Assembly: GCA_000002445.1 (NCBI GenBank) | Contig: CM000208.1 | Location: 2,368,001-2,432,000, forward strand | Source: Trypanosoma brucei | Lineage: Eukaryota | Direction: 5' to 3' | Length of the DNA: 64,000 nucleotides | Part shown: in pieces, positions 46,120 to 62,094 of the stretch | Layout: each line of letters begins with the position of its first letter | Numbering within the stretch: position 1 is the first letter of the stretch | The notes under the pieces: model-generated | Told to the model about the DNA's origin: nothing | Seen by the model: only the letters and a program-made list of their open reading frames with translations | Databases searched by the model: none | Translations under genes and position numbers: made by a program

Positions 46120-47156
46120 AAGTTACGCCAATGTGCGCGCAGCGGGTCAGAGTGGTGTTTTCTTTTTGTTTTTTCCCCCTCTCCCTCGCTGACTCTGCGC
46201 ACTTGGAACTTTTTTGGTGATTCACGTTCCCACTCTGCACCTTGTTGCTATTGCTGTATTATTGGTACTGAGCACCATTGGCATCATTCGCCAGATTCTT
46301 TCCTATGATTGATCGTGGCGTCGCTGCGTACCGCATTGTTGTAGGGGGTGAAAACGGAATTTTGGACCAACGCTGGTGGGAAGAGAGAAGCAAAAGAGAG
46401 AAGTGGCCGGTATTCAAGGAGTGAATCAACGAAACAAGGTGAAGTTCGTAGTTAACCGTCGCTTCACGAATAGGATAACAAAAACTGGAGGGTAAGTTAC
46501 GATTAAAATGCCATTTAAGTGACAGCGGAATATCCCCCTTCCTCGCCTCTCCATGCAAACTTACGCTGGGGAGGCGAGAGTTTGTGTATATGTGCTAAAG
46601 AGGAACTACGCGCGGGCAAAAAAGAGGAAGCTTCCCCCCCCCCTTTATTTTACCTGCGTGTCGGTATCAATAGCACTTTTTCTAATATGATACGGATTAA
46701 AATATGATTTGAATCGCACCTCTTTTTAAGGTGGGATGTTCAACACGATCACCCCATGATATTGTTGAATATTTACTGACCGCGACGGTCTTTCACACTG
46801 CTTCTGCAGTCGTGCCTTTTATACAGTAACTGTTCCGTGGTATATTCTTTTTTGTTGATTCTTCGCTTCCTCCTAACGGTATATTAAGGTTGGAAGGAAG
46901 GGTGGGAACACTTCTGTGCCCATATAGACGAATTGGATGGGTGCGGCGTCGTTAGCCACTGAGAAGGTAATATAGTGATAGCAATAATAACACGAGGAGA
47001 CAATTTTCTCTTTTAAAAAACTTTGGGTAAAGAGAAATAAATTAAAATAAACGCGTATCAAACATATTAAGATATAAAATAAGTACCGTTTGCAGGGCAG
47101 GAAAAGAAAAAGAAGCAAACCATAGAAGACAGGTGAGACAGTGCTAGAGTCCATTC

Positions 47157-48929
47157 ATGCGTATTGTAATCGATGTCGATGCGGTTTTACCCATCAGATA
47201 TGCCGATGACGAGAATAATGTGGACAGCAACTGCAAGCCATTTAATATCATTGAGGACAACTCCCAGTCTGACAATGATGAAGAATCGATTACCAAACGA
47301 GGTACGGAGAAGAAACCCGCAGCTCCCGTAGTGCGAAAGAGGTCAAGGCCTCCCTCTTCTCATTCCTCAAGTGCCCTGTATTCAGCTCTTCAACCCCGAA
47401 AGAACTGGGCCAAGAATATGTTTCGTGGGGATACACCGTATAGTCTGCTGAAGCGGGAGGATCTCTTTGAGCGATGTAACTACATCATGGACCATGACGA
47501 TTTCGTATGGTGCAGTGAGAATAACGTACCGCACACGCTCTTTGCCGACGCCGTTACGCAGCTTGAGAGGAGGTACGCCACGTGCTTGCTGGAGACCGTC
47601 AAAAATAGAACTGCAGCAGGCGGAGCGAGTAGCGAGGAGAATGTTTCCAATTGGAGCGAACAAACCATGGGTCTCGGTGATGGCCGGGGCTACGGTTTGG
47701 CCGGAGGGATAGCATGCGGTGTATGCTCACAGAAAGAGCGTAGTGAGCGAGCGGGTGATCGCTTTCTTCGTTGCAGGCGCTGTGGTGTTCAGGCTCACCT
47801 TAGCTGTTGGTACCTCAATCAACTTCCCCTCGACGTGGAAGACTGGTCATGTCCAGCTTGTCATGTTGCCCGCCGTGAGAAAGGCTTAGGTCATTGTTGT
47901 GTTTGTCGCCGAAAGGGTGGTGTGATGCTACCGTACATGTCGGGTGTGGAGTGGCGAAGGTATGAACAGTTAGCCAGTCACGAAATACCTAAAGAAGATT
48001 CTCCAGCAGCAGCTTTTTGTCATGTTGTGTGCGCCCTTGCATTCTCTGAGTTGTTGATTGATGAGCAACGAAGGGTTGTGCATCCCGCAAAACGAGCTAA
48101 GAGGGTTGGCGTTATTGCATTATGTGTCTTCTGCCGTAGCAACAGTGGTGAGGGTCTAACAATGTGTCACCACAAGCGGTGCTTCACCTCCATGCATCCC
48201 GCATGCGCACAGATTGCTGGTACTATTGAATGTTACCGCGCAGAGAGCGTGCCAGCGGGCTCAGCGTGGGGTGGTTGCAATGTGTATTGTAGCGATCACT
48301 TCAGAGAAGCGCTGAGTGTTGCTGCACATTCAGAGGTGACTAGTGTAAACGCGGAGTCAGCGGCTCTTAAACATGTAACGCCCAGCGGACTGGTGACCCT
48401 CGAGAATGATAACCACGTAGAGGGTTCGAATTTGGCTGGTGTTGTTTCTAATTCTGCTGTAGCTCCCTCTCTGGATGCAGTCAAGTTGCGTTGGGTGGAG
48501 AAGCGGGCACAGCGACTACGTGAAAGTGCACAGATGGTGGAGGAGATTAGAAAGGGAAAGCGTGACATTTTGTCGGTGCTTTTTCGTCCCGAGGTAGTAA
48601 AAGTCTCAGCAACGGAAGTTCAGCTCTCCCGTTTCGTTTTCCTTATACCTGAGCTGCAGCAACATATTAATTCCGCCGTCGAGGGTATATTACCCGTTGT
48701 AGATGACGAGTATGAAGATGTGCAGCGATACAGGAAGGTGCAATCACGTACCCGTCACGCTGGAAACACCGTGCAACTTTACCAAAAGATGCAGCAGGTC
48801 GTTTCGCACGTTGATGTGTTTTGTGAACTAAGTAATGTTATCCGTAAGCGGGCTGCTCTTCGGCGTGAGTGGGTGGAAACTGAACTTAAAATTTTACATC
48901 AGCGCTGTGGTATCGCCGACGACAATTAG
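47157..48929 (+). CDS. PHD finger + extended PHD (ePHD) zinc-finger protein, BRPF/JADE/AF10-like chromatin reader
   Basis: Canonical PHD CGVCSQ...RFLRCRRCGVQAHLSCWYLNQLPLDVEDWSCPACH (C4HC3). Then ePHD CCVCRRKGGVMLPY...AFCHVVCALAF...CVFCRSNSGEGLTMCHHKRCFTSMHPACAQIAG...CSDH. An acidic N-terminal region and a C-terminal helical region are present. Confidence 0.7.
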   Translation: MRIVIDVDAVLPIRYADDENNVDSNCKPFNIIEDNSQSDNDEESITKRGTEKKPAAPVVRKRSRPPSSHSSSALYSALQPRKNWAKNMFRGDTPYSLLKREDLFERCNYIMDHDDFVWCSENNVPHTLFADAVTQLERRYATCLLETVKNRTAAGGASSEENVSNWSEQTMGLGDGRGYGLAGGIACGVCSQKERSERAGDRFLRCRRCGVQAHLSCWYLNQLPLDVEDWSCPACHVARREKGLGHCCVCRRKGGVMLPYMSGVEWRRYEQLASHEIPKEDSPAAAFCHVVCALAFSELLIDEQRRVVHPAKRAKRVGVIALCVFCRSNSGEGLTMCHHKRCFTSMHPACAQIAGTIECYRAESVPAGSAWGGCNVYCSDHFREALSVAAHSEVTSVNAESAALKHVTPSGLVTLENDNHVEGSNLAGVVSNSAVAPSLDAVKLRWVEKRAQRLRESAQMVEEIRKGKRDILSVLFRPEVVKVSATEVQLSRFVFLIPELQQHINSAVEGILPVVDDEYEDVQRYRKVQSRTRHAGNTVQLYQKMQQVVSHVDVFCELSNVIRKRAALRREWVETELKILHQRCGIADDN

Positions 48930-49279
48930 CCGCGGCAGTAGTGTTGTGAACACATTCCCCCTCCCCTCCGCTGTGTAGACCATGTACCTTCCGGAATTTA
49001 AGTATTTGCAATAGCGCCATGTGTACACCAAGCACAGGGGGCACGGTATGAAGGCGCAAAACAGAAGTAGAGGACCCATTTTCCCACGGGTCTTCGTGGG
49101 GTAATATGAATACGCTCTGTATGGCTTATTGTCATAGTGGAACTTTCGCTCCTCTCCCTTTTTTCCTTCTATCCGTTATTTGTTTTGTTGGTGACCTTCG
49201 TGTGGAATGTTAAGAGGGGGATCCCTTGCAACCCACCAGTTGCTTACCGCGTTTTGTGGTGCGTTCCTCGTTTTTTTAG

Positions 49280-49765
49280 ATGCGGGTACTCACGCACCAC
49301 CGACATGCCGTCAATAGGGGAAGTGCGACCCTCGGTGGTCTGACTATGGTGAACACCGCGTATTCCTTCCTCTTTGCATTCCCTGTTGCTGTGGTTTCGC
49401 TAGTCGTGCGGTGGCACAAAAAACTCACTTTGAATCAGCGAGCGCTTTGCGTAACTTGCCTGGTCGTGTGGACGCTCGTGGACGTGCTGCGTCTACACTT
49501 GGGATATAGCGGTAACCGAAAACAGTACGTGCCCTCTCTAATCGGCTTTTTTGTGATGACCCTTCTGCCGCAGCTTCCCCTCGCCATAGCTTATAACTTA
49601 GCTTGGCCACATCTTAGCTCTCTCGACTACGCCACGAGTACAGTGATGATAATGTTGCTCGTAGCGGAGATCGTGTTTAGTCTCCGGGTGATCGTTCGAC
49701 TTATTCGCAATAATCGCATAGACTACTATGTGTATGGGCCATACCATGTCCGGGATCTCTACTAG
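49280..49765 (+). CDS. Small 4-helix transmembrane protein (hypothetical); probable start at nt 49346 (MVNTAYSF...)
   Basis: Four hydrophobic segments of about 20 residues (AYSFLFAFPVAVVSLVV; ALCVTCLVVWTLVDVL; LIGFFVMTLLPQLPLAIAY; TVMIMLLVAEIVFSLRVIV). Size and topology recall ciliary transition-zone tetraspans (TMEM17/80/216), but no motif-level support. Confidence 0.35.
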   Translation: MRVLTHHRHAVNRGSATLGGLTMVNTAYSFLFAFPVAVVSLVVRWHKKLTLNQRALCVTCLVVWTLVDVLRLHLGYSGNRKQYVPSLIGFFVMTLLPQLPLAIAYNLAWPHLSSLDYATSTVMIMLLVAEIVFSLRVIVRLIRNNRIDYYVYGPYHVRDLY

Positions 49766-50208
49766 CTGTCATAAGCTTAATGTTACTCATATTGTAACGA
49801 CTTCCACAAACGCTCACGTGCTTCATTCGACGACAATATGGTGTTGCTTGTGGCGTTCAGAATATTTTTTACCATCATTGAGTGTACAGTATACTACTGC
49901 TTAAAGTGTGTCATTTGTTTCTCCACGATTGTTAGTAGTGCGACCTGGCGCGTGAGCCAGTGACACACCTGATTTTGTGGGCACGTGGTGGAGGTGTTCA
50001 CAATGTTTTTCATTCAAATGTCTCTCCTTATTTTCGACGTTGTGGGTTGCTTTGTTTTGTGGGTGCATATGTATATATATATGCAATGAACTGCAGGAAC
50101 GGTTAGGGACGGTGAGGGACTAAAGCACCGCGAACCTTCGGACTCTGCCACCTTTCCATTGCAGCAGCAACAACTGCACCAGGAAAGCATTAGCCATCGT
50201 AAAGGATT

Positions 50209-51393
50209 ATGACGGAGCGTACCGACACTATTCGCGAGTTGTTCCACAAAAGCAGCCCCTATCGCCCCGGTGGCGATGACTTCGCTGAGCTCACTGCTCT
50301 GAAATCTCACACATTTTACGAAACCTTTCAGGTCGTCACATCCACAGCAAAGGTCGCGGTGCGAAACACGCGTGCTAGCATCAAAGCAGCTCTCCGCGCC
50401 ATGGAACAATTTAGCCCCGCAGTTTCAGATCAAGAGAGTGCCTTACTGTTACAGGAGGCGGAGTTACTCGCGGCTTCCGACGCCATAAAGGAACTCATTG
50501 CATCGCTGAAGAACGCGTGTGTGCAGTCGGAGAAGTCTGGAAGCCGGTGGGGTGCTGCTGTGTCAAGGAAAGGGGATGAGGCACAGGACGCTAAGACTGG
50601 GAAGCCGTCAAACCAAATGCTTTTGCATCTCGAGACAGCCCTCGAGGTTGTCGGGCTATGCACCGGTCGATGGAGGCTTTTGCTGGCCCTATGCAAAGAG
50701 GAGCTCATCTTGTATAAGCAGGAGATGTTCTCTTTTGGGCGTATTGGAGTACTTTCTTGTCAAGATCCAGTGAAAGAAAAGTGTGGGGACGCTGAGAGTT
50801 CAATCAGCAGGCGCGAACCGGACGTAGAAAGACCACAAGAACTGGACCTGCCAATTGGCTGTAGTGTAGAGAAGCCAAAAGATGCAACCCAAGCGGTTAT
50901 GTCGGTGGTAGACCGTGTCATGAAGGAGGCAGCGAGGAGGGTGACGGTGGCACCGCTTCCTCTCAATAGCGGTGTATGGTCAAAAATACGGGGAAACAAA
51001 AGCAATTGCAGGAACGTCTGGAACGCGGATATCTCTGAAGTTCCCGTTCCTCAATTCGAGTACAGTTTAGAGGAGCAGCAGCAACTAAGGGTTGAAAATG
51101 CGATGCTGGAAAAGCATCAAAGACTAGTCTCCGCCGAAGATGCGAAGGCTGTTGAAGTCTCTGTTCGTGAATTGTCGCAGTTGACCTCCCTCATCAGCGA
51201 ACGAGTCATTCAGCAGAACGAACAGTTCTCCATTCTTTTGAAAAATACTGAAGCGGCGCAGAACAACATGCAGCGAGGAATAGGCGAAGTTAAGCAAACT
51301 CTTACGCATTTTTGGAACCCAACCCGACAGCTGATAGCAGTTCTGTGGACCAGCATCATCGTGCTTCTGTTAGCCAACTGGATCATTCGCTAA
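50209..51393 (+). CDS. Qa-SNARE (syntaxin-like, possibly syntaxin-18/Ufe1-type) with C-terminal transmembrane anchor
   Basis: C-terminal SNARE heptad region LSQLTSLISERVIQQNEQFSILLKNTEAAQNNMQRGIGEVKQ with a central Gln. A hydrophobic tail anchor WTSIIVLLLANWIIR follows directly. Long helical N-terminal domain. Confidence 0.5.
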   Translation: MTERTDTIRELFHKSSPYRPGGDDFAELTALKSHTFYETFQVVTSTAKVAVRNTRASIKAALRAMEQFSPAVSDQESALLLQEAELLAASDAIKELIASLKNACVQSEKSGSRWGAAVSRKGDEAQDAKTGKPSNQMLLHLETALEVVGLCTGRWRLLLALCKEELILYKQEMFSFGRIGVLSCQDPVKEKCGDAESSISRREPDVERPQELDLPIGCSVEKPKDATQAVMSVVDRVMKEAARRVTVAPLPLNSGVWSKIRGNKSNCRNVWNADISEVPVPQFEYSLEEQQQLRVENAMLEKHQRLVSAEDAKAVEVSVRELSQLTSLISERVIQQNEQFSILLKNTEAAQNNMQRGIGEVKQTLTHFWNPTRQLIAVLWTSIIVLLLANWIIR

Positions 51394-51769
51394 GCTATAT
51401 CTGCGTCTAATGCAGACGTGGTGGTTGGAAATGACACAACCGAGGGGGTGAGAAAACCTCGTGTGGAGTCGTCGCGTAATGGTTAATTAAGTGCATGTAC
51501 AAAAGACCGCGTGATGTTGCACGCGTATACTTATCCATACTCACTGCTCGAGTTGTTAGTATCTCCTACTTTTTTCGGTGTTATTCCCTTTTTTTCCTTC
51601 CACGCCTTTGGTTACTGTGAATAGCACTGGTGCTGCCCGCGTGCGGTGCTAGCCTACAGAAGCGACAATATCGATAAGAATCTATTTTTTCGTTTACATA
51701 ACGGCGCAGACATTTTGACCTACTCCCGCTCCTTGCTCACATACAACAAGGAAGCTGGCTCGAGCTGCG

Positions 51770-53149
51770 ATGACGGCGGGACTCGTTTCATCTTTCGGAA
51801 GGTGTGGCGGGGCTGCAGCTGCGCTTTCTACGGTGCTACACACTCGTCAGCCACTTCCATTTGTTTTTTTCACCAAGTGGGCGATGCACGACTTTCATAC
51901 CTCCCGTTGGTCCCGCGCCAGGTCCGATTCACAGCTTCGCCGTACACATCTTGGTAGGAAGTGTACTGAAACACCCATGATGGAAATGGTTTCGGTAAAC
52001 CGTTACGGCGGAAATGCAAAACGTGAGGCGTTGGCACTGGCTTTTCGTACGTACCGTAGTGTGTGTCAATCATCCGAGACCCTGCAAGCTGGACGAGAAG
52101 CCGTGTCTCAAGTTCAACTGGATGACTTTGCATTTGGAGACGACGAAATGGAAGAGGTTGCGACCGATTTCGCATGTCTTTACCTTAATGCCACTGTGCT
52201 TTTTGTGTCTCCACCCTCGGAGGAGATGATGGTGGGACTGCTCTCTTGTCTATCAAAGGTGCTGCACAACTCATTCCACTGGGAATGTGTCCTCTCTGTG
52301 CTTGTTGCATTACTGCATCCAGAGGCAACATCTGCCAGGGTATTTGTCACAGCTTTTACCATGATGCTACGTGAATCACTGGGCGAAAGCGTACCAAAAA
52401 CCTTCTCACGTGACGGTGTAGTGTTGTTGCTGCTTTCCGTAGCACGAGCCACTGCTATATTACGTGAAAATGAAGCGTCGAGTAAAGATATGGTCTACCT
52501 CCTTGCTCTCCAACAGAATGCCTTGGTGGAACTGTGTTGTACACCGGGAGCGGCCCCTTTACCACGGGAGGAGCTACTTGTTCTAACGGACGCCATCTGT
52601 TGGCGGTTTGCAGCCACCGGAGGGTGCTTACACTTGCGTGAGCCGTCACTTGACAGCGTGGTGAAGCAGCTGCAACTATCGAGTAAGGCAGTACTTGATG
52701 TGCTGGTGGTGTCGGAGTGCACAAAACTTTTCTGCGCTTCGTGTTTAGCTTTGGTCCCGCCTAGTTCAGAGGGGAATCCGCGGCCCCAGTGCCAGCACCA
52801 GTGGCAGACGACGCTCGATCCCCTCGTTTCTCATCTGGACCGTTTAGTCCGCGTACACTCCATTGTAGATGCTCTCTGTGTGTTCGTTGGGCTTTCGGTA
52901 AATGGCGATGCGAGAGCCCGGTATCGTAAATATCCATTGGCACTCCTGGAGCATCTACAGGAAGAACAAGACGTGGGAAATATATTTACTGAGTTGTTGA
53001 GGAGCGGCGGCAGCGATGTCTTCGCTGCCCTGACTAGTACCTTAACTGAGTTACGCAACAGCGGAGAGGATGACTTAGCAGATGCAGTAAGCCCCCTGTT
53101 AAACGCACTCTCTACAGAGGTACCGCGTGCGGCAGCGTCGTCCTCGTGA
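51770..53149 (+). CDS. Hypothetical helical protein; alternative starts at nt 51884 or further downstream (MMEMVSVNRYG)
   Basis: Intact 459-codon ORF in the + array. Leu/Ala/Val-rich helical composition. No recognisable domain. Confidence 0.4.
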   Translation: MTAGLVSSFGRCGGAAAALSTVLHTRQPLPFVFFTKWAMHDFHTSRWSRARSDSQLRRTHLGRKCTETPMMEMVSVNRYGGNAKREALALAFRTYRSVCQSSETLQAGREAVSQVQLDDFAFGDDEMEEVATDFACLYLNATVLFVSPPSEEMMVGLLSCLSKVLHNSFHWECVLSVLVALLHPEATSARVFVTAFTMMLRESLGESVPKTFSRDGVVLLLLSVARATAILRENEASSKDMVYLLALQQNALVELCCTPGAAPLPREELLVLTDAICWRFAATGGCLHLREPSLDSVVKQLQLSSKAVLDVLVVSECTKLFCASCLALVPPSSEGNPRPQCQHQWQTTLDPLVSHLDRLVRVHSIVDALCVFVGLSVNGDARARYRKYPLALLEHLQEEQDVGNIFTELLRSGGSDVFAALTSTLTELRNSGEDDLADAVSPLLNALSTEVPRAAASSS

Positions 53150-53424
53150 CACACGTGGAATTATACGTGCATACCCTTGCTCACTCATCACACACGGAAA
53201 ACCAGCTATTGTTTGCCGTGTGCAATCTGTAGAGAATATTCCGTGCACAGTTGCACCTTCTTCATCTGTTAAATGCTGGGTCTTCCGCTCTTCCTCATAT
53301 GGCACACCAACACATGCGTCCCTTTTGTTTACAAAACCATAGAAAGTATTCAATACACCGTGGGCAGGCTGAGCACATCTGCGAAACGAGTTAAGGCAGA
53401 GTTCTCCACACGTCGTAGGGAACA

Positions 53425-56400
53425 ATGATGGCCAACAAGCGGTTGGGCCGACACGCCTCGTCGCTTCTCTCTCCTTACACGATGGTCCCAACGCCTATTG
53501 CGGCAACAGGGTCTTCATGTCTTTCACAGAGAACATCAGTGCCCTGCTCCCGCGCGGCACTCTTACAGGCCAAATGCTTTTCTTCTGAGAGACTCGCACG
53601 CCTGTTCGCGTTGGAGCTCAACAGAGCTCGAGCCGAGTACCGTCGCACTCCCACAAAGGCTCAGCAAGAGGCCTGCTTACGTACCATTGCAAGCGTGCCC
53701 CTTCAGCAGGTTCGTGGTCTTGATGGCAAGACGGTGGCACAGTGCTTAACCACCCTCGTGACGCTTGACGCACCAGCCGATATGCCAATTATTCATGATT
53801 GTGCGGTTTGGATTTCCGTACACCCTGACGCGTTGTCACCCCATTCACTCGCACAGTCACTTTACTCACTTGTGTGTCTAGAATACAGTGACTCGGCAAG
53901 TGTTGTGTGCGCTGTAAGGCAACAGCTGTTGAGTGCTATGGAGGATATGGCTGCCAGCAGCATTTGCATGGTGCTTGCTGCGGTGCTAACATCGTATGCC
54001 ACTCCAGCGCGGGGACAACTGGCAGCCGGCGCTGGGAAAGGGAGCGAAGAGGGAGTCAGCGGCACGTTACAACTCCCCATGGATATGTCTCAACTTGCAG
54101 AACGTGCACTGCCGTTCATGGACGAAAGCCTGGGCTTGACTGAGAAGGCGATGGTTGCTGTGGCACTTGGGAAGTACCTTTCTCAGACAGCTACAGCAAC
54201 CTGGACGGAGGGGCTTATTGCTGACCGTATAATGGCTCAGTTATCAGCGGTTGTATGGGGTTGTATCCCTGGTGCTGAACTCTCTGTTCTATCGATGGCT
54301 GATATTGTTGGTATCGTTTCTGTCTTGCATGTCGTGCCGTTACCAATCCGTGATTCAGTTGCAACTGCAGCTCTACAGGAACTGAAGACTCGTGTGTGTA
54401 ATCAGTCACTAGAGTCGTCACGAAGCGTTGTGCAAGTGGCCCGCGTCCTCAGTTGCCTCTGTAATGTTAATAGAGAGAGTGTGTACTACAGTGCCTCGCA
54501 GGATGTCTTGGAGAAGGTGGTTTCTGCACTAGAAGCATATGTTGCTAGTGATGCCATTACACTAGATGCCGCGGCGAAACTTCTGGAGGAGTTTTCCAAA
54601 ATCACCGGAAGTTCGATTGCAACGCCCCCTGCATTAACAAGGTACCTAGTACGCGCAATCAATGGCTCTAAGGAGAAATGGGATGCACAGTCGGTTCGTA
54701 CTGTTCTCAGTGTCTTTAGCAAAGATAGTAGTTTACAGGCAGATGCGCAAGCCCTTGCGACACGTCGTGTGGAGCTCATCAAATCGAAATGTACCGCAGG
54801 AGCGTCAGTGGACGCAAGCGATGTTGCTGCTTTGCTAGTGGAGGGTATTGTCGATCCGCATGCAGAGTTGCTTGCAGAGACAGTTACAAATAATATCAGC
54901 CGATGGAGTGTATCACAAGTTATGACATTCCTCCAGGCAGCTGCGCGTGTCAACGGTAAACCTACAAATGCTATTATGCGTGATGTGGCGTCGAAGCTGG
55001 TACCATGCATGGAAAAGGCCACAGCAGCGCAAGTTGCGGCAGTAATGTCATCTTACGGCCGTGCCCGTGTGAGGAATGATGCTTTCTGTGCTGCGGTCAC
55101 CAGTCGCGCTGCTCTATTAGGCCCAGAGCTGACCCTACAGCAAATAAGCACGATACTGGGAGGTCTTGCTGCCGTCGAGTATCGTGATACGAAGCTGTTT
55201 CTTGATGTGGCACCCACAGTTATCGCTCAATCTGCTACAGCTGACGCGACACAAACTGCCAATTTGTTAGCAGCATATGCCAAGATGCTTGTATGGAACT
55301 TCAAAGTGATTTGGTCACTCGCTGAGCGCGCATCGGTTATCCACGAACAGTTCACGTTAACACAGGTGTTTGCTGTGGTGACATCACTTAATCGCATGGA
55401 CGTACAGCACGACGTTTTGGTGCAAGCGTTGCTTCGGAAGGCGATCCGATGCGCCTCGGACGATCCCAACTTACCGCTTCCCGATGTGGTTATGATACTG
55501 AGTGCTTTCTCTCGCAGCGGTGTATGGGATGCTACCCTTTTCGCGGACCTAGGAAAGCGTGTGGTGCAGCAACAACAATCTCTAACACCGGAAGAGCTGG
55601 CAGAAACTTTGATGGCCTTTGCACGTGTCGGTCTCACCCAGTATAACATCTTTGACGAGCTGACACTTCGTGCTCTTGCCGTGGCCCCTACATGCTCACT
55701 TATGGCACTGGCGAACGTGTCAGTGGCGTACGCCACTATTGGGTGCAAGCATGAGGAGCTTTTTTCGATTATTGCAGATCGCTTCGTGAATCAAAAACTC
55801 GACGTTCCGGCTGTGACAATTGCCTCGGTTCTAAGCGCCTTCGCAGCGATTGGCATTCGGAACGATCGGCTCTTCATTGAGGCCATTCCACGCGTGCGCC
55901 ATGTCGGGCAATACGGGACGCCGAAGGATATAACAAATGTGGTGTACGCATATTCTCAAGTTGGCCTATGGCACTACAAATTGTTTGTAAGGCTTGCTGA
56001 CCGAGCGGTCCAGCTCCGTGGCGAGTTCCGTTGCGACCAGCTTGCGCGGCTGTTGGAGGCTTATGCCCGTGTTGACATGAGGTATGAAAAACTCTTTGTG
56101 GAATTCTCTCCACGTGTTCAAACAGTGGCCCATCTTCTTACAGCGGGCGAGATATCGACAGTTGTGAACGCCTACGCAAAGGTGCGTGTACTTGACACTG
56201 CAGTGTTTAAGGCTTGCGTTGACCGAGCGCAGGAGGTACTGAACTCATTCGAGCAGAGTGAAGCCGCACTGTTGGTGGGCGCGCTGCGAAAAGCAAAGTT
56301 CGATCATGAGGGTCTCGCAGTATCACTGGGAAAGATGTTCCCCGGTATGATGGCTTCACTCCAGCAAGTGGAGGACGAAGAAAGGGAAGTGGGCACAACT

Positions 56401-56499
56401 CCGGCGGGCGGCAACGAGGGTGACGAAACAATTTTGGTAAACTCGAACGATTTGGGGTCATCAGTGGTTGAGGCAGCCGATGGGGGAGCATCAGCGTGA
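53425..56499 (+). CDS. Heptatricopeptide-like (37-aa) helical repeat protein, FASTK/HPR-like; probable organellar RNA-binding protein
   Basis: A-[FY]-[AS]-x-[VI]-G registers recur at residues 694, 731, 768, 805, 842, 879 and 916, exactly 37 residues apart (AFSRSG, AFARVG, AYATIG, AFAAIG, AYSQVG, AYARVD, AYAKVR). Each is followed by a ...LF..L hydrophobic pattern. Looser copies extend back to about residue 430. N-terminus is presequence-like (MMANKRLGRHASSLLSPYTM). Confidence 0.6.
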   Translation: MMANKRLGRHASSLLSPYTMVPTPIAATGSSCLSQRTSVPCSRAALLQAKCFSSERLARLFALELNRARAEYRRTPTKAQQEACLRTIASVPLQQVRGLDGKTVAQCLTTLVTLDAPADMPIIHDCAVWISVHPDALSPHSLAQSLYSLVCLEYSDSASVVCAVRQQLLSAMEDMAASSICMVLAAVLTSYATPARGQLAAGAGKGSEEGVSGTLQLPMDMSQLAERALPFMDESLGLTEKAMVAVALGKYLSQTATATWTEGLIADRIMAQLSAVVWGCIPGAELSVLSMADIVGIVSVLHVVPLPIRDSVATAALQELKTRVCNQSLESSRSVVQVARVLSCLCNVNRESVYYSASQDVLEKVVSALEAYVASDAITLDAAAKLLEEFSKITGSSIATPPALTRYLVRAINGSKEKWDAQSVRTVLSVFSKDSSLQADAQALATRRVELIKSKCTAGASVDASDVAALLVEGIVDPHAELLAETVTNNISRWSVSQVMTFLQAAARVNGKPTNAIMRDVASKLVPCMEKATAAQVAAVMSSYGRARVRNDAFCAAVTSRAALLGPELTLQQISTILGGLAAVEYRDTKLFLDVAPTVIAQSATADATQTANLLAAYAKMLVWNFKVIWSLAERASVIHEQFTLTQVFAVVTSLNRMDVQHDVLVQALLRKAIRCASDDPNLPLPDVVMILSAFSRSGVWDATLFADLGKRVVQQQQSLTPEELAETLMAFARVGLTQYNIFDELTLRALAVAPTCSLMALANVSVAYATIGCKHEELFSIIADRFVNQKLDVPAVTIASVLSAFAAIGIRNDRLFIEAIPRVRHVGQYGTPKDITNVVYAYSQVGLWHYKLFVRLADRAVQLRGEFRCDQLARLLEAYARVDMRYEKLFVEFSPRVQTVAHLLTAGEISTVVNAYAKVRVLDTAVFKACVDRAQEVLNSFEQSEAALLVGALRKAKFDHEGLAVSLGKMFPGMMASLQQVEDEEREVGTTPAGGNEGDETILVNSNDLGSSVVEAADGGASA

Positions 56500-57065
56500 A
56501 AATCTTCAAATGAGTAAGATGAAAAATAGGGAAACATATTGCTTTCTATTTGGATGCAATATCCAACGCCCTTTTGCATACACACCGACTTTTCATCGTC
56601 GTTATACCTACAGGAACTCCTTTCACCTCCCCCATGAGCAAATGGTTCCGTGTTTGTTGCAAGAACTTTACTTATAAGATGTAAGTGTTGTAACTAGTGG
56701 TGTTCTTTATGTTGTTGTTCGCGGACCACATGGCGGATGAAGCTGTCTAAATTGCCCAACTACGGGGGAGTTGAATTGAAAGGTTCTAACTAACTCCGGT
56801 GCCGAAATCGGCTCACCCAGCACATATGCATGTGTGCATATTGCTGCTTGTCTTACCTTTTTTTATGTGCGTGGGTTTTCTCTTCGCGACCATTTGTTCG
56901 GCATTTCTGCGCGGCCCATCGTGCGGCAGACGTTTACCCATTCTGGTACGCACTTTACTTTTTTCAACATCGGTTTCACCTTTGTTCAAGGTTTTTTCTA
57001 CGCTTTCCGAAACTCTTTTTACCTGTATTCCAGGGCCGAAGCTTATCCAGATAATAAATAGGGCG

Positions 57066-58091
57066 ATGAGCTCAAGGAACTGCAGCCTTTCGCAAGGTAG
57101 GTTACTCTCCCGGCAGAAGCGCCCACTAGTTGTGGCACAGTTTCTCAACAAAGTTCCAATAGAAGACCGTCATGCGGCTACAAATGCGCTGCTTTGCCTG
57201 GGACTCCGCGCATACAAGATGGTCCACGCCACCACCCCTCCAGATATGCAAACACTACGGTCTGCGGTTTCTGCGGAGATCTCCGCGGTAGCCAGCGGAT
57301 CTGAGGGCTTAAATGACCAAAAGATAGATGAAGGTACAGCAAGCGGGCGCCAGCGGGGGGCTGTAGATGACGTTGATGCGTTTCTGTTTGCACGCCGCGA
57401 ACGCGGACAGGCGCCTTCATCCTCGCCCCCTGTGGATAGGCGTTTGGAGGGAAATACGGAAGAGGAGGAGTTTTACACGCGTATCGAGAGTGTAAGAAAT
57501 GTTGGCGAACCCTCATACCACGATAGAATGCCCCAGTTGATGGAGGATGTTGATGTATATTCTTCAAGTAAGAGCGGTGCGGACACCAGGGCGCTGAATC
57601 GATTGGCTGGCGACGGAGGTGAAAGCGACAGAGCTGCGGGCAAATCGGGGTGCTTCACTGATGTGCTTGATTTTGTTACGAACTGTGCCGTAGGAAGTTT
57701 GTCATTGTGCACTCCGACGCGCTGTCGAGAAGCAGCGAATGTCAGCTCCTCCCCACCCGCTAACTGTTACAACGCTCCAGGTTCCGAACAACCCAACATG
57801 GGACACGCTTCACCACTACGTGCGAGTGGAAGCCAAGACCTCCCTCTCGGTGGAATGAAAGAGTTTAACATGAACACAGTGGTGCCGTTGCTGGACGATA
57901 ATGGTGTTGTTTATCCTGTTGAATTCATTCACCATCTAATGGCCCGCATCAAAAGCACACGCGGCGTGCGGGAAAACCCCATTCTTGTTGCGGCCTACAT
58001 GCCACAGTCGTTGGCTGTCTACACATTGCAGGGAAGCTTTGGGGATCTTTACAGAAGCCTTTTGGTTTCCTACCATGTTTCCATGTGGTGA
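57066..58091 (+). CDS. Hypothetical protein (ORF-track frame 56799..58091; start taken as the first Met after the pyrimidine-rich leader)
   Basis: The first 89 codons of the track ORF are translated from a polypyrimidine-rich stretch and are probably UTR. The remainder is a Ser/Ala/Gly-rich protein with no recognisable domain. Low confidence that it is a real gene. Confidence 0.3.
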   Translation: MSSRNCSLSQGRLLSRQKRPLVVAQFLNKVPIEDRHAATNALLCLGLRAYKMVHATTPPDMQTLRSAVSAEISAVASGSEGLNDQKIDEGTASGRQRGAVDDVDAFLFARRERGQAPSSSPPVDRRLEGNTEEEEFYTRIESVRNVGEPSYHDRMPQLMEDVDVYSSSKSGADTRALNRLAGDGGESDRAAGKSGCFTDVLDFVTNCAVGSLSLCTPTRCREAANVSSSPPANCYNAPGSEQPNMGHASPLRASGSQDLPLGGMKEFNMNTVVPLLDDNGVVYPVEFIHHLMARIKSTRGVRENPILVAAYMPQSLAVYTLQGSFGDLYRSLLVSYHVSMW

Positions 58092-58356
58092 GAACGAGAT
58101 GTTCCTTAGTCTAGTCGGGGATGCGCTCCAATTTCCTCATGTATTGTTTCGGATGTTTTTTGCTCAAAGGATGCTGTTTCCACTTGCATGTCCCCCACCT
58201 AAGTCCGTTATAAAGTTTTGTGTTTTTCTCACAGTTCATCGTTTCTTTTCTACCCCTTCAACATTGATAACAAAAGTGTGCTCGGCTGTTCGCATTATCA
58301 GTGGCGGCGAGGGAGGTGCAGAGAACGGAGACTACTTCCGTAAGTCTTTGAATATA

Positions 58357-58962
58357 ATGACTGACGCCAGTAAAACAACCAAATCTGTTGAGAACGCTAA
58401 TATCCCCACGTTGACATTTGTCACGGGGAATGCCGGTAAGCTTCGCGAGGTGCAGGCCTGCCTTGGCGGCTACGTCACGACCGAATCGGTGAAATTGGAC
58501 CTTCCAGAAATACAGGCCTCATCGGTTTCACGAGTGAGTCGAGAGAAGGCTCTCCTTGCGTACGAACGGCTAAAGAAGCCGGTGCTCGTAGAGGACACTG
58601 GGCTGTCTTTTGAGGCTCTGGGAGGAATGCCCGGTCCATATGTCCGTTGGTTCCTCGACGCTGTTGGACCTATTGGACTCGCCAAAATGCTCAACGGCTT
58701 CGAGTCCCGCAGCGCTCAGGTGGACTGCGTCTTCACCTACTGCGCCTCACCGGGAGAAGTGCTTCAGTTCATCGGGAGCAGTCGCGGCAGTATTTCAATG
58801 GTACCACGTGGCGAAGGTGGTTTTGGGTTCGACACCATTTTTATGCCAGACGATGGCAATGGGCAAACATTTGCAGAGATGTCGGCAAGCACAAAAAACA
58901 CAATATCACATCGGGCCAGAGCACTGGTGGAAGTAAGGAAGCATTTTGAAAATAGCAAATAG
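58357..58962 (+). CDS. Inosine triphosphate pyrophosphatase (ITPase, Ham1/Maf family)
   Basis: LTFVTGNAGKLREVQ (N-terminal Ham1 motif), KPVLVEDTGLSFEALGGMPGPYVRWF (substrate-binding loop) and RGSISMVPRGEGGFGFDTIFMPDDGNGQTFAEM (C-terminal Ham1 motif). The ORF-track entry 57985..58962 carries a 124-codon upstream extension with no similarity, so the start is placed at MTDASK. Confidence 0.8.
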   Translation: MTDASKTTKSVENANIPTLTFVTGNAGKLREVQACLGGYVTTESVKLDLPEIQASSVSRVSREKALLAYERLKKPVLVEDTGLSFEALGGMPGPYVRWFLDAVGPIGLAKMLNGFESRSAQVDCVFTYCASPGEVLQFIGSSRGSISMVPRGEGGFGFDTIFMPDDGNGQTFAEMSASTKNTISHRARALVEVRKHFENSK

Positions 58963-59754
58963 GGTGCTGTTGTTGGTGTGGTGATCGACATGGGAAACGA
59001 CACACTGAGGGAAGTTGATGCGGTTGTGGTATCGTTGCGCCTCGTATGTGTGACTTTGGTGCGGACTCATTGGTTCTACAGTCGGCCACGATCATACCAG
59101 GACTCCATGGTTCGATTTGAGTTTGGTGGAAAAGTGTACTGCTCCCCGTCATTTGAGGGGCAGTGAAAAGCAGGGAATGGGATGTTCACCCGTAGAAAAG
59201 ACAAATGCGGAAACTGCAGCTTTAAACAAGATTCTGAGGTTCTTTAAGTTTTTTTTTGTGTGTGTGCACGACAGCGTCATGCAAGGAAGCGATGACTCCA
59301 ATCGACTTCACACGCGTGCACCGTGTTGCGTCGGAAGCAAGCCACACAGCTACTCTTACCCTCCGTCGATAGGCCGTGTCCGAGGCATGTGGGAAGGTTA
59401 CCGCACGTTGGATTGTTGATATGATCTTGTGGTTTGGTGCTCGTACTTATTGGAGTGGAGCACTTCTCGCGGCTGCGGCAACGGATTGCTCCTCATACAA
59501 CCCATCTAACTGACTCTCTTTTACCTATCGCACATTTTCCCACATGTATACCTTAACTTCATCTCCTGTCCTTAGGATCAACTAAAGGGGGAACTAAAAA
59601 AGGAGTGCAAAGAAACTTCCCGGGTGTATCGCGGAAGAAAACAAGGCGAAAAGCAAGTGAAGTATTGTTGGAAAGATCATACCCACACGTTCCTGTAGTA
59701 GGTAACCATCTGACATTTTGGAATTGCAATTTTTCCCATTCCTCGGCCGATATA

Positions 59755-60978
59755 ATGCAACGCTGCACACCAGTTTTGCTTTTGCTGCTGTGCTCTCTCT
59801 TAACCCTTCCCAATGATACGGTTGCACGGCCCAAGATGAGTCGAAGAGAACTGAGAAGATATCTCCCTCGGGAACCACCAGCAGAGCCCTCATTTCATCA
59901 CCTTCGAAGCGTAGTCTTGCTTCAACGCACCGGAAGTGAGAAGGATTCAGTATCAGAGTGTAATGGAGAAACTCCATTTCCCACGGGAGAACCGGTTTTG
60001 GTCAACACAACACTGGCCGACGGCACCAAACGTCGGTTCGTCATCTACGTTCCTAGTTCATATGCCGAGCGGAAAGAAAAGGTTAGCCTGAAACTTCTAT
60101 TTCATGGCCTTGCGGGTGATTGTGCCACCTTTCTTAACACTACAGGTTTCATTCCGCATGCAGAAAAGGATGGCTACATCTTAGCGAGTGCTTGTGGAAC
60201 TTCCAGTTTGATGGGTGCTGGATGGAACGCCGGTGAGTGTTGCCTTTTCTTTAATGGCGCCGCCCCTAATGACACTGAGTTCGCGAAACACATCATCGAT
60301 GTTGTATCATCCAAGGCGTGCGTGGACCGGAATAAGATAATGTCGGTCGGTTACAGCAATGGGGCAATGCTGTCCGAATTGCTTGCTTGTCAGAACCCTC
60401 CTATTGTGCGAGCCGTCGCTTCTGTTGCCGGCACTCTGGCAATGTCTCCGGGTGGCGAAGGCGGTATCGCAGCGTGTGCAAAGATGTTGCGGGGTGGTGA
60501 AAGCGGCTGCAGGACTAGCATATTGAAGATTAATGGCATGCGCGATGGGTACGTCCCATTTCGTGGGAGTTCTTTTCTCAATTTACCGGCCATTTCTGAA
60601 AATGTCAAGGGTTGGGTCAGTGCCAACGGCTGCCGCGGACGCGGAGTCACAACAATTAGCAATAGCAAGTTTCGGAACAAGGTGTACAATGATTGCAGTA
60701 GCGAAAACGGTGTGCTTTATCGGTTCTGGTGCTTCATACACCGACTGGCACATTTTCCTACTGGATTAGGGAGCAAAAAGAGTACCGATGTGAATACTAG
60801 TGATGCCAATGAAAAAGATGCAACTGGTGAAGATGCTCCAGCAACCGAGACTTGTAAAAAAACTGTTGTCGAGTCGGTTTATGCGTTGGAGGGTACTCAC
60901 GAGTGGCCCAATAAAGAAAATTTCTCGGCAACGGCCTATATATATGAATTCGGAAAGCGTGTACTCGGCAGTTATTGA
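59755..60978 (+). CDS. Secreted alpha/beta-hydrolase esterase of the PHB-depolymerase / LpqC (esterase_phb, CE1-like) family
   Basis: Signal-peptide-like N-terminus MQRCTPVLLLLLCSLLTLPNDTVARP. Family pattern RRFVIYVPSSY...LLFHGLAGD...DGYILASACG...AGWNAGECC...DRNKIMSVGYSNGAMLSELLACQ with the nucleophile elbow G-Y-S-N-G. The ORF-track entry 59605..60978 has a 50-codon upstream extension before this Met. Confidence 0.6.
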   Translation: MQRCTPVLLLLLCSLLTLPNDTVARPKMSRRELRRYLPREPPAEPSFHHLRSVVLLQRTGSEKDSVSECNGETPFPTGEPVLVNTTLADGTKRRFVIYVPSSYAERKEKVSLKLLFHGLAGDCATFLNTTGFIPHAEKDGYILASACGTSSLMGAGWNAGECCLFFNGAAPNDTEFAKHIIDVVSSKACVDRNKIMSVGYSNGAMLSELLACQNPPIVRAVASVAGTLAMSPGGEGGIAACAKMLRGGESGCRTSILKINGMRDGYVPFRGSSFLNLPAISENVKGWVSANGCRGRGVTTISNSKFRNKVYNDCSSENGVLYRFWCFIHRLAHFPTGLGSKKSTDVNTSDANEKDATGEDAPATETCKKTVVESVYALEGTHEWPNKENFSATAYIYEFGKRVLGSY

Positions 60979-61110
60979 GATGCTGCTTGTGTTAGTGGAA
61001 AAGTTCGAACGTAAAACCCACCGTTTTATCCGTCTTCTTCCTTTTATTTTAAATTCGAATTGAACTAGAAGGAAGGAGCTCAAGAAAGAAAAATGGTAAT
61101 TTGTTATAGT

Positions 61111-61135
61111 TTGTGTTTGTGTGTGTGTGTGTGTT
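61111..61135. repeat. (TG)n microsatellite
   Basis: gtgtttgtgtgtgtgtgtgtgtttatt read directly. Confidence 0.85.
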
Positions 61136-61749
61136 TATTCTCATGTTAATGTTCATTCTTGTTTTAACCTGTTAACAACAACTGTAATTAGTACTGTTGT
61201 GACAAGTATTTTATTATTTTTTTTCGGTGTGGCGGTAGCGAGAATAACAAATTTTCCTCTCCCTTTCCTCCCTCAGTTTGTCCCCCTTTTTTTAATTTCA
61301 CCCGTTAAGTTAGACGTAGCAAATGTGTAGGGCATGTTGTAAAATCATTATTATACGAGCGGGTTTTAAGACATGTGGTCGTTGTATTAACCTACGGTTT
61401 CGTTCCCTTGATTGAGAATGAAGCTGTAGAGATGGGAGTTAATGTTAATGAAAACGTCAGAACGGGAGTAACCTCACGGTAACACAAATCACGTTGCGAG
61501 TGGGCTGCCGGAAAGAAAAAAGGAAAAGTATAAAATAAAACAATACAAAACGAAAAAAAGAAACGGGGATGGGAGCTGAGGAAACGCGCTAATCTTCCTT
61601 CCTGCCTGCGGGAGGGGTGTTGGTAATCATGATGATAATAGTAATAACCGTGAAGATTGTAATGGTAGAGCTTGGGGACGCGTAACGAGCGGTATTGGTT
61701 TCCCCTTTTGTTGTTTTTGTTATTACTACTTATTTGTTGGAGTACCTAC

Positions 61750-61820
61750 CGTGGTTGTGTTTTTTTTTGTTATTTCTTCGGTTGTGTTTTCTCCACTTAG
61801 GTCGCTTCTTTACTTCGCGT
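61750..61820 (+). promoter_or_regulatory. Polypyrimidine tract upstream of MRT4
   Basis: tgtgtttttttttgttatttcttcggttgtgttttctccacttaggtcgcttctttacttcg, about 280 nt upstream of the ATG at 62095. Confidence 0.4.
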
Positions 61821-62094
61821 GCCAAGGAACAACTGAGAGACTTGCCACCACTTTCGCCACGAGTGAATATGGTGTTCATGATCGAATGAAGGGAAGCATG
61901 TGAGATTGTAAGGAAGCGATCAAAGCAAACGTGGGGTAATCTTATCTGTTTTCATTAACCGCGCTATTATAAATATGAAGTTCATTTTTCTTTAAATATC
62001 TGCGATCGCTAATGCTAAACATCATATTATCACTGCTGTTATTATTTTATTCAAAGTGAGCTGACGGCACTAGCGGTGGCAGTAGGAGGGAAAC

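What the first reader, a model, noticed from the sequence alone, without database searches (positions are those of the whole stretch)
54712..56260. Strictly phased 37-residue (111-nt) tandem helical repeat: HPR/FASTK-like probable organellar RNA-binding protein
At least seven consecutive units (nt 55480-56260) keep an exact 37-aa period: the A-[FY]-x-x-[VI]-G register falls at residues 694, 731, 768, 805, 842, 879 and 916. Looser copies extend upstream to about residue 430. A 37-aa helical repeat defines heptatricopeptide repeats (HPR, related to FASTK/RAP, PPR and OPR proteins), which bind organellar RNA. The N-terminus looks like a mitochondrial presequence. A C-terminal RAP domain is not evident. 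Kinetoplastid mitochondrial RNA metabolism is mostly attributed to PPR proteins, so an HPR-type array is worth noting.
Basis: seen in the sequence. Interest (0 to 1): 0.55.

Follow-up and report, generated by a model that had tools for sequence, protein, structure and literature searches.

The report
RESC6-like mitochondrial 37-residue helical-repeat protein
The repeat is real: this Trypanosoma brucei gene (Tb927.10.9970) encodes an uncharacterised mitochondrial protein whose tail is a strictly phased array of 37-residue helical hairpins, a longer relative of the RNA-editing scaffold RESC6 and a distant, nuclease-less relative of FASTK/RAP proteins, so it is a new member of a known kind.

Summary
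ORF 53425-56499 (+) is identical to T. b. brucei TREU927 Tb927.10.9970 (Q389X9, 1024 aa). Residues 683-941 are seven 37-aa units with no indel. BLOSUM autocorrelation gives z about 11-12 at lag 37, against a maximum of 4.7 for any lag in shuffles, and no signal at 34/35/36/38/39/42. Four looser units (532-682) are found by profile. AlphaFold2 adds hairpins at 495 and 942 and shows an all-alpha solenoid over residues 56-983.

The units match the HPR/FAST_1 motif. Of the 63 nearest non-orthologous relatives scanned, 55 match Pfam FAST_1 and 31 carry RAP. The protein itself and all 31 kinetoplastid orthologues lack Pfam FAST_1, FAST_2 and RAP, so it is not a FASTK-family member.

Published proteomics place it in the mitochondrion, but not in RESC or mitoribosome structures.

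Most likely it is a non-catalytic RNA-binding scaffold in mitochondrial RNA metabolism. That part is inferred, and the target RNA is unknown.

It is a new member of a known kind, of modest interest.

The parts
53425..56499 (+). Complete coding sequence of Tb927.10.9970 (1024 aa plus stop). Identical to T. b. brucei TREU927 XP_823219.1 / Q389X9.
   Evidence: ORF listing. Exact identity to P0011. Q389X9 = Tb927.10.9970, 110 kDa. Downstream ITPA = Tb927.10.9990 and MRT4 = Tb927.10.10010 fix the gene order.
53425..53586 (+). Residues 1-54: probable mitochondrial presequence and a disordered leader. Six R/K, and no acidic residue before position 55.
   Evidence: Composition. pLDDT < 50. MitoFates-positive and listed in the mitochondrial reference set.
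53590..54906 (+). Residues 56-494: less conserved N-terminal alpha-solenoid. Its first part (residues about 97-300) is homologous to RESC6 residues 102-290.
   Evidence: AF2 helices. N-terminal profile against PDB hits RESC6 at E = 2.7e-11. Conservation is 0.25-0.42, against 0.70 in the C-terminal core.
54907..55470 (+). Residues 495-682: five looser HPR-type hairpins starting at 495, 532, 569, 606 and 643. The last is 40 aa, which shifts the phase by 3.
   Evidence: Repeat profile hits at 532, 569, 606 and 643. A foreign HPR profile places units 532, 569 and 643 in the same register. The hairpin at 495 is seen only in the AF2 model.
55471..56247 (+). Residues 683-941: seven strictly phased 37-aa HPR units starting at 683, 720, 757, 794, 831, 868 and 905.
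   Evidence: Ungapped 247-residue alignment to RESC6 224-470.
55693..56136 (+). Residues 757-904: the most conserved core (units 757, 794, 831, 868). It carries invariant or near-invariant Arg at unit position 30 (R786, R823, R860, R897) plus R825, K852, R856 and R865. This is the proposed ligand-binding surface.
   Evidence: Conservation over 31 kinetoplastid orthologues. Position 30 is also R in the foreign HPR consensus.
56248..56373 (+). Residues 942-983: a degenerate capping hairpin and a terminal helix.
   Evidence: AF2 helices 944-956, 962-971 and 973-989. Only 2-7 of 37 residues are identical to other units.
56374..56496 (+). Residues 984-1024: acidic disordered tail (10 D/E, 1 R/K). 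There is no RAP domain.
   Evidence: pLDDT < 50. No Pfam RAP.

Best explanation
The gene is Tb927.10.9970. It encodes a nuclear-encoded protein that is imported into the mitochondrion and conserved across Kinetoplastea.

After a presequence the whole protein is one alpha-solenoid. Its C-terminal half is an array of 11-13 heptatricopeptide-type (37-aa, two-helix) units. It is a long paralogue of RESC6, homologous at both ends with roughly 500 extra residues of repeats in between. More distantly it belongs to the pan-eukaryotic HPR/FAST_1 repeat lineage, but without the FAST_2 and RAP nuclease-like module.

Shown here: the repeat, the fold, the homology, the mitochondrial location (from published proteomics), and the absence of RAP.

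Inferred: it acts as a non-catalytic RNA-binding scaffold in mitochondrial RNA metabolism. In this reading it holds a single-stranded stretch or a 3' end of an RNA along the conserved Arg-rich face of units 757-904. The poorly conserved N-terminal solenoid would dock protein partners.

The target RNA (gRNA, mRNA or rRNA) and the partners are unknown.

Fold:
- AF2 mean pLDDT is 75.9, and about 84 across the solenoid. The model is all helix-turn-helix.

RESC6 paralogy:
- phmmer E = 3.6e-31, with an ungapped match of residues 688-934 to RESC6 224-470.
- Orthologue profile E = 9.7e-45.
- N-terminal profile E = 2.7e-11 to RESC6 102-290.
- The precomputed Pfam annotation (PF26188 + PF26172) is shared by all nine hits, and the UniProt name is 'RESC6 protein domain-containing'.

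HPR/FAST_1 link:
- 1030 library proteins match the orthologue profile at E <= 1e-3.
- Of the 63 next-best non-orthologues scanned, 55 match Pfam FAST_1 and 31 match RAP.
- Of five segments that align to this array and were scanned alone, four score 33.6-54.3 bits on FAST_1 (cut-off 27.4). The fifth scores 54.6 bits on DUF1601, a 37-position model.
- A profile of 188 foreign units scores 59.8 bits on this protein, against a maximum of 3.9 bits in 200 shuffles, and in the same register.

Mitochondrial location:
-.

RNA-related function, by analogy:
- Most of the best structural neighbours belong to mitochondrial RNA complexes: RESC3/4/6/8/9, the helical-repeat proteins of the Toxoplasma, Chlamydomonas and Polytomella mitoribosomes, and mt-SAF3. 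The ATP-synthase subunit ASA2 is an exception.
- Conservation peaks at 0.70 in residues 800-900, with a ladder of conserved arginines.

Orthologues:
- Found in Trypanosoma, Phytomonas, Angomonas and free-living Bodo saltans.
Against: - No experiment links this protein to RNA.
- It is absent from every solved RESC, mitoribosome and assembly-intermediate structure. The best PDB sequence match is only RESC6.
- It is not in the older MRB1, RNA-editing or mitoribosome lists.
- In the RESC TurboID tables it appears with only 1-2 in the count columns of a few samples, listed next to proteins such as a dynein heavy chain and a Golgi glycoprotein, which looks like background.
- Some equally close structural neighbours (Polytomella ASA2/ASA3) are protein-only scaffolds of ATP synthase.
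- The response to ATOM40 knock-down is modest (ratios 0.74-0.79).
Confidence: 0.6

Rival explanations
1. [quoted passage not shown] A RESC6-like module would replace or supplement RESC6 in a RESC/GRBC variant and hold the gRNA 3' end during U-insertion/deletion editing.
For: RESC6 is the closest relative at both ends. KRGG1, another RESC6 homologue, associates with RESC and is needed for editing of specific mRNAs (PMC9891254). RESC variants lacking RESC6 have been described (PMC12936278). Orthologues were found only in kinetoplastids, the lineage with this editing.
Against: It is not modelled in RESC-A, -B or -C. It is not in the MRB1 lists. In the RESC TurboID tables it appears with only 1-2 in a few count columns. 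It is not among the 21 RESC proteins listed by Carnes et al..
Confidence: 0.15
2. It is a mitoribosome biogenesis factor, or a loosely bound mitoribosomal protein, that binds 9S/12S rRNA. This would resemble the HPR/RAP proteins on the Toxoplasma mitoribosome and the helical-repeat proteins that decorate green-algal mitoribosomes.
Against: It is absent from all T. brucei mitoribosome and assemblosome structures in the PDB and from the Zikova 2008 mitoribosome list. Sequence similarity to these proteins is much weaker than to RESC6.
Confidence: 0.12
3. It is a protein-only scaffold or assembly chaperone (used like a HEAT repeat) with no direct RNA contact.
Confidence: 0.1
4. It is a bona fide FASTK-family member, meaning an HPR tract that feeds RNA to a C-terminal PD-(D/E)XK (RAP) nuclease-like domain.
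For: The repeats are homologous to FAST_1-type repeats. There is a weak hit to human FASTKD4.
Against: No FAST_1, FAST_2 or RAP Pfam match in the protein, in its parts or in any of 31 orthologues. Only 41 disordered acidic residues follow the solenoid. The downstream ORF has no domain hit.
Confidence: 0.02
5. The periodicity is a chance or compositional artefact of an Ala/Leu-rich helical protein.
For: The sequence is Ala/Leu/Val-rich, and the units share only 19-32% identity.
Against: z = 11-14 at lags 37, 74 and 111 only, against a shuffle maximum of 4.65. The same register is recovered by an independent foreign profile. The units are conserved in 31 orthologues. Structure prediction agrees.
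Confidence: 0.01

Closest known systems
RESC6 (MRB3010/GRBC6, Tb927.5.3010), core subunit of the T. brucei RNA-editing substrate-binding complex (PDB 8FN4 chain 6)
   Different: This protein is twice as long (1024 against 516 aa), with about 500 extra residues of repeats. It is not seen in RESC structures and appears only at a low level in the RESC proximity data. It has its own orthologue set from Bodo to Trypanosoma, separated from the RESC6 orthologues by a gap from E = 1e-71 to 1e-34. No function has been reported.
Heptatricopeptide repeat (HPR) proteins of Apicomplexa and other eukaryotes (Hillebrand et al. 2018, PMC6212722)
   Same: Tandem 37-aa two-helix units. The shared motif is F-x-x-Q-x-L-x-N-x-x-W-A-F-A-x-x-G-x(5)-L-F-x(5)-R. 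There is no PPPEW. The proteins are organellar, and many HPR proteins also lack RAP.
   Different: The kinetoplastid units are too diverged to reach Pfam FAST_1 or DUF1601 on their own. The W, Q and N positions are mostly replaced. Euglenozoa were not sampled in the defining study. The original MEME/MAST motif was not available to me.
FASTK family (human FASTK, FASTKD1-5; Pfam FAST_1, FAST_2, RAP)
   Different: It lacks the family-defining C-terminal FAST_2 and RAP (PD-(D/E)XK-like) module and has no direct FAST_1 hit. It therefore cannot act as a FASTK-type nuclease or pseudo-nuclease.
KRGG1 (Tb927.6.2230) and the other RESC helical-repeat proteins (RESC3, 4, 8, 9, 10, 11, 12, 16)
   Same: The same 'ARM/HEAT-like' right-handed solenoid family in the same organelle. 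The orthologue profile reaches RESC8 (2e-13), RESC4 (3e-10), RESC3 (7e-7), RESC9 (3e-6) and RESC11 (7e-3). Carnes et al. showed that KRGG1 is a RESC6 homologue.
   Different: Those proteins have experimental links to RESC and to editing, and this one has none. It has no RGG domain.
Helical-repeat proteins of the Chlamydomonas/Polytomella mitoribosome (mL113-mL118, mL123) and Polytomella ATP-synthase ASA2
   Different: They come from a different lineage, share only 9-15% identity, and are integral subunits of known machines.

Membership tests
HPR (heptatricopeptide repeat) proteins | At least two tandem repeats with a 37-residue period | tested here: met
   Seven units with no indel, and 11 by profile. 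z = 11-12 at lag 37 only.
HPR (heptatricopeptide repeat) proteins | Each unit forms two alpha-helices, giving a solenoid | tested here: met
   The AF2 model has 13 consecutive helix pairs over residues 495-971.
HPR (heptatricopeptide repeat) proteins | Match to the HPR sequence motif | tested here: met
   A surrogate profile from 188 units of FAST_1/RAP proteins scores 59.8 bits, against at most 3.9 bits in shuffles, in the same register. The aligned foreign segments pass Pfam FAST_1 or DUF1601. The original MEME motif of Hillebrand et al. was not available.
HPR (heptatricopeptide repeat) proteins | [quoted passage not shown] | tested here: met
   No PPPEW-like string is present.
HPR (heptatricopeptide repeat) proteins | Organellar location | tested here: met
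   From the literature: mitochondrial proteome, MitoFates-positive, reduced on ATOM40 RNAi.
HPR (heptatricopeptide repeat) proteins | Binds organellar RNA | not testable with these tools
   No CLIP or RIP data were found.
FASTK family | Pfam FAST_1 (PF06743) match | tested here: not met
   No hit at E <= 10 for the whole protein, its thirds or the array alone, and none in 31 orthologues. Homology to FAST_1 repeats is only transitive.
FASTK family | Pfam FAST_2 (PF08368) match | tested here: not met
   No hit.
FASTK family | C-terminal RAP / PD-(D/E)XK-like domain (PF08373) | tested here: not met
   No hit in the protein or in 31 orthologues. The C-terminus is a 41-residue acidic disordered tail.
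RESC6-like helical-repeat family (Pfam PF26188 / PF26172, 'RESC6 protein domain') | Significant sequence match to RESC6 | tested here: met
   E = 3.6e-31 for the single sequence and 9.7e-45 for the profile. The N-terminal part alone gives 2.7e-11. The precomputed Pfam labels and the UniProt name agree. The local Pfam copy lacks these two models, so I could not rerun them.
RESC6-like helical-repeat family (Pfam PF26188 / PF26172, 'RESC6 protein domain') | RESC6-type right-handed alpha-solenoid fold | tested here: met
RESC (the complex itself) | Physical association with RESC subunits and gRNA | tested here: inconclusive
   It is absent from the RESC-A/B/C structures and from the MRB1 lists. It appears with only 1-2 in a few count columns of the RESC TurboID tables. 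No reciprocal purification is available.
Canonical HEAT / ARM repeats | Match to HEAT/ARM profiles, or closest fold neighbours being HEAT/ARM proteins | tested here: not met
PPR / OPR / TPR | Period of 35, 38-40 or 34 residues, with the family motif | tested here: not met
   z <= 0.4 at lags 34, 35, 36, 38 and 39. In residues 495-978 the value z = 3.2 at lag 40 reflects the single 40-aa unit. No Pfam PPR or TPR hit and no PPPEW.

The most novel reading that the evidence does not exclude
The kinetoplastid 'ARM/HEAT-like' RESC6-type proteins, including Tb927.10.9970, may be RAP-less descendants of the ancient eukaryotic HPR/FAST_1 repeat family. In that case Tb927.10.9970 could be a RESC-independent, end-specific or sequence-specific RNA binder that controls a step of kinetoplastid mitochondrial RNA processing not yet assigned to any factor. 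Examples would be protecting or handing over U-tailed gRNA or rRNA 3' ends.
Probability: 0.2. Interest if true: 0.55.

Novelty: new member of a known kind. Interest (0 to 1): 0.3.

Why it matters
This would add one more conserved, abundant and uncharacterised helical-repeat protein to the trypanosome mitochondrial RNA machinery. It is detected with up to 30 peptides in whole-cell proteomics.

It also gives sequence-level evidence that the RESC6-type solenoids belong with HPR/FAST_1 repeats. The kinetoplastid literature describes those solenoids as 'ARM/HEAT-like' and lacking primary-sequence motifs.

The strictly phased seven-unit array, with a conserved arginine at a fixed position, is a convenient test case. 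It could show whether HPR tracts read RNA modularly, which is still unknown for FASTK and HPR proteins.

It does not open a new category.

Tried and rejected
- The local Pfam copy has no PF26188 or PF26172, so the RESC6-domain assignment rests on precomputed labels and on PDB searches.
- Tandem Repeats Finder found no repeat in the DNA, so a recent duplication is rejected.
- A second word-index homologue search, with the 31-sequence profile, returned only the same nine Trypanosoma proteins. I therefore could not establish whether orthologues exist in diplonemids or euglenids.
- The afdb50 fold library was unavailable.
- Full-text searches for Tb927.10.9970, Q389X9, Tb10.6k15.0310 and TcIL3000_10_8390 found no paper that discusses the gene. 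One search also included two IDs I guessed for other species, which count for nothing.
- The TrypTag supplements held as text do not contain the ID.
- The RIT-seq paper, the sub-mitochondrial map, the RESC cryo-EM paper and the 2014 RESC pull-down paper are not held.
- The complexome paper and the p32 preprint have no supplements held.
- No other ORF in the window carries the repeat.
- Considered and rejected: FASTK membership, canonical HEAT/ARM, PPR/OPR/TPR, and chance periodicity (see the membership tests).
Full report
**What is there.** The finding lies inside one long ORF, window 53425-56499 on the + strand, 1024 aa. Its product is identical to T. brucei brucei TREU927 XP_823219.1 / UniProt Q389X9. 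The ImportOmics tables equate Q389X9 with Tb927.10.9970, old ID Tb10.6k15.0310, 110 kDa. The flanking genes agree. ITPA (Tb927.10.9990) and MRT4 (Tb927.10.10010) follow in order on the same strand. Every ORF of at least 250 aa in positions 1-44000, and of at least 180 aa in the rest of the window, is on the + strand, and GC skew is positive almost throughout. This is what one polycistronic unit of a trypanosome chromosome looks like.

**Check of the observation.** Written in rows of 37, the C-terminal part lines up without a single indel.
- A-[FY] falls at 694, 731, 768, 805, 842, 879 and 916, followed about 11 residues later by L/I/V-F and then by D/P-R.
- The complete A-[FY]-x-x-[VI]-G motif holds in four of the seven units. 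The other three deviate at one position.
- BLOSUM62 autocorrelation of residues 680-960 gives z = 11.8, 13.6 and 10.6 at lags 37, 74 and 111. The largest z at any lag in 1000 shuffles is 4.65.
- Lags 30, 34, 35, 36, 38, 39, 42 and 47 are at background.
- A profile made from the seven units finds further units at 532, 569 and 606 in its first pass, and at 643 after iteration. These four are 37 apart, with one 40-residue unit before 683.
- The AlphaFold2 model (mean pLDDT 75.9, about 84 in the folded part) shows 13 consecutive helix pairs from 495 to 971, inside an all-alpha solenoid that spans residues 56-983.
- Upstream of 532 no unit can be recognised by sequence.
- There is no repeat at DNA level. 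Units share 7-12 of 37 residues, so the array is old.
- Units two apart are slightly more alike than neighbours (10.6 against 8.0 identities). This explains the stronger lag-74 signal and recalls the 72-position Pfam FAST_1 model.

**What family it belongs to.** Single-sequence Pfam scans find nothing: no FAST_1, FAST_2, RAP, PPR, TPR, HEAT or ARM. The large protein collection carries precomputed PF26188 + PF26172 for this protein and its Trypanosoma orthologues, and UniProt calls them 'RNA-editing substrate-binding complex 6 protein domain-containing'. Those two models are not in the local Pfam copy.

Against PDB sequences the best match is RESC6.
- E = 3.6e-31, with residues 688-934 aligned to RESC6 224-470 without a gap. 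RESC6 therefore has the same phasing.
- A profile of 31 orthologues gives RESC6 9.7e-45, RESC8 2e-13, RESC4 3e-10, RESC3 7e-7 and RESC9 3e-6.
- The same profile reaches several Toxoplasma mitoribosomal 'RAP domain-containing' proteins, green-algal mitoribosomal helical-repeat proteins, and human FASTKD4 at 1.5e-3.
- A profile of the N-terminal 460 residues alone hits RESC6 102-290 at 2.7e-11. The protein is therefore collinear with RESC6 at both ends, with about 500 additional residues of repeats between.

Structure comparison agrees.
- The first 38 hits are all mitochondrial proteins.

**Link to HPR/FASTK.** I scored the orthologue profile against 1.84 billion representative proteins. It found 1030 at E <= 1e-3.
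- About 29 orthologue representatives score down to E = 3.6e-71. The sampled ones that carry a name are from Bodo saltans, Phytomonas and Angomonas.
- Then there is a gap to 1e-34.
- Of the 63 next proteins scanned, 55 match Pfam FAST_1, 31 match RAP and 20 match DUF1601, a 37-position model.
- One of them is a Plasmodiophora 'RAP domain-containing protein'. A Leptomonas RESC6 orthologue lies in the same score range.
- Their consensus is F-x-x-Q-x-L-x-N-x-x-W-A-F-A-x-x-G-x5-L-F-x3-A, repeated every 37 residues and followed by a RAP-like D...E-x-D-G-P-x-H motif.
- I scanned five of the segments that align to this array on their own. Four pass the FAST_1 threshold (33.6-54.3 bits against 27.4) and the fifth passes DUF1601.
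- A profile built only from 188 foreign units has the consensus FNPQELANTAWAFATLGIKDPALFDALAARALERIDE. It scores 59.8 bits on this protein, against at most 3.9 bits in 200 shuffles, and places the units at 532, 569, 643 and 683-905 in the same register.
- This test is partly circular, because the foreign proteins were selected by this protein's own profile. Their FAST_1/RAP content and the register are independent of that selection.

The array is therefore of the HPR/FAST_1 type. The protein and all 31 orthologues nevertheless lack FAST_2 and RAP. Only a 41-residue acidic disordered tail follows the solenoid. It is an HPR-type protein, not a FASTK-family member.

**Location and expression.**
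- Tb927.10.9970 is in the mitochondrial reference set of Peikert et al., through the Panigrahi/Mach mitochondrial proteome. It is MitoFates-positive. It is not in their mitoribosome, RNA-editing or MRB1 columns.
- After ATOM40 knock-down it falls to 0.79 in whole cells (30 peptides, p = 0.004) and to 0.74 in organelle-enriched fractions.
- The first 54 residues carry six R/K, have no acidic residue and are predicted disordered.
- In the RESC TurboID tables of Wackowski et al. it appears with only 1-2 in a few count columns, listed next to proteins such as a dynein heavy chain and a Golgi glycoprotein. I read this as background.
- No PDB chain is identical to it, so it is in none of the solved RESC, mitoribosome or assembly-intermediate structures.
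- No held paper discusses the gene.

**How it most likely works (inferred).** Conservation across kinetoplastids is low in the N-terminal solenoid (0.25-0.42). It peaks at 0.70 in residues 800-900. There, Arg at unit position 30 (R786, R823, R860, R897), together with R825, K852, R856 and R865, is invariant or nearly so. Position 30 is also Arg in the foreign HPR consensus.

Most of the closest relatives work in RNA complexes.
- In RESC-A the gRNA 3' end sits in the RESC5/RESC6 crevice (PMC12936278).
- HPR and RAP proteins decorate the Toxoplasma mitoribosome (PMC11652630).
- PbHPR1 binds RNA in vitro (PMC6212722).

I therefore think the protein is a non-catalytic RNA-binding scaffold. The conserved C-terminal units would hold a single-stranded RNA stretch or a 3' end, and the variable N-terminal solenoid would dock partners. 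My confidence is about 0.9 that it is a mitochondrial RESC6-paralogous HPR-type solenoid. It is about 0.55-0.6 that it binds RNA directly, and low for any particular RNA.

The rivals are an accessory RESC subunit, a mitoribosome biogenesis factor, and a protein-only scaffold like ASA2. None is excluded. FASTK-type nuclease activity and chance periodicity are excluded.

**Comparison with what is known, and novelty.**
- Carnes et al. 2023 showed that KRGG1 is a RESC6 homologue. [quoted passage not shown]
- The 2026 review repeats 'reminiscent of HEAT repeats'.
- A 2025 FASTK review notes that FASTK N-terminal domains superpose on RESC6 and RESC8.
- The HPR-defining paper did not sample Euglenozoa.
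- The ten held papers that mention both 'heptatricopeptide' and Trypanosoma are, by title, about other organisms or are general reviews.

The family and the fold are known, and this protein is already labelled with the RESC6 domain in databases. Two things are new here. The first is a careful description of an uncharacterised member. The second is a sequence-level bridge from the RESC6-type repeats to FAST_1/HPR repeats. I rate it a new member of a known kind, with interest about 0.3.

Noticed in passing
window 51770-53149 (+): The ORF immediately upstream (459 aa) is Tb927.10.9960 (Q389Y0, 50 kDa). It is strongly depleted after ATOM40 knock-down (ratio 0.249 in purified mitochondria) and is listed as a new mitochondrial candidate. 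It has no Pfam domain. Two adjacent genes therefore encode uncharacterised mitochondrial proteins.
   Followed up: partly
window 55471-56247 (+), residues 683-941: The lag-74 autocorrelation (z = 13.6) exceeds lag 37 (z = 11.8), and units two apart share more residues (10.6 against 8.0 of 37). This suggests a two-unit super-repeat, about the length of the 72-position Pfam FAST_1 model.
   Followed up: partly
window about 53713-54324 (+), residues about 97-300: The N-terminal part is also homologous to RESC6 (residues 102-290, E = 2.7e-11). The protein therefore looks like a RESC6 expanded by about 500 residues of internal repeats, rather than a fusion with an unrelated domain.
   Followed up: yes
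PDB entries 8FN4 chain 6 and 8FNC chain 10 (not in the window): The PDB names RESC6 and RESC10 'RAP domain-containing protein'. A RESC6 orthologue (P0058, Leptomonas) nevertheless has no Pfam RAP or FAST_1 hit, and only 46 residues of RESC6 follow the aligned repeat region. The name may be a database artefact, or may come from a signature I could not check.
   Followed up: partly
window 54486-55022 (-) and 55227-55748 (-): Two antisense ORFs (178 and 173 aa, with GTG and TTG starts) lie inside the gene. They are Ala/Ser-rich mirror images of the coding strand and are most likely spurious.
   Followed up: no
window 56799-58091 (+) and 57985-58962 (+): The 430-aa GTG-start ORF (presumably Tb927.10.9980, no Pfam hit) overlaps the upstream extension of the ITPA reading frame. 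The real ITPA (201 aa, MTDASK...) starts well inside the 325-aa TTG ORF. The mechanical ORF boundaries here are not gene models.
   Followed up: partly
window 1-64000: Every ORF of at least 250 aa in positions 1-44000, and of at least 180 aa in 44000-64000, is on the + strand. Cumulative GC skew rises almost monotonically, which fits a single polycistronic transcription unit. Neighbours identified by Pfam are a WD40 protein (44887-46119), a PHD-finger protein (47157-48929), a weak alpha/beta-hydrolase match (59605-60978) and MRT4 (62095-62775). A 1868-aa ORF at 3052-8658 was not examined.
   Followed up: partly
P0027 (library protein, 3892 aa, EukProt 'gene11003-7646_t'): One orthologue-level hit (E = 1.9e-140) is embedded at residues 1391-2013 of a 3892-aa predicted protein of unknown organism. 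This may be a gene-model fusion or a much larger relative.
   Followed up: no
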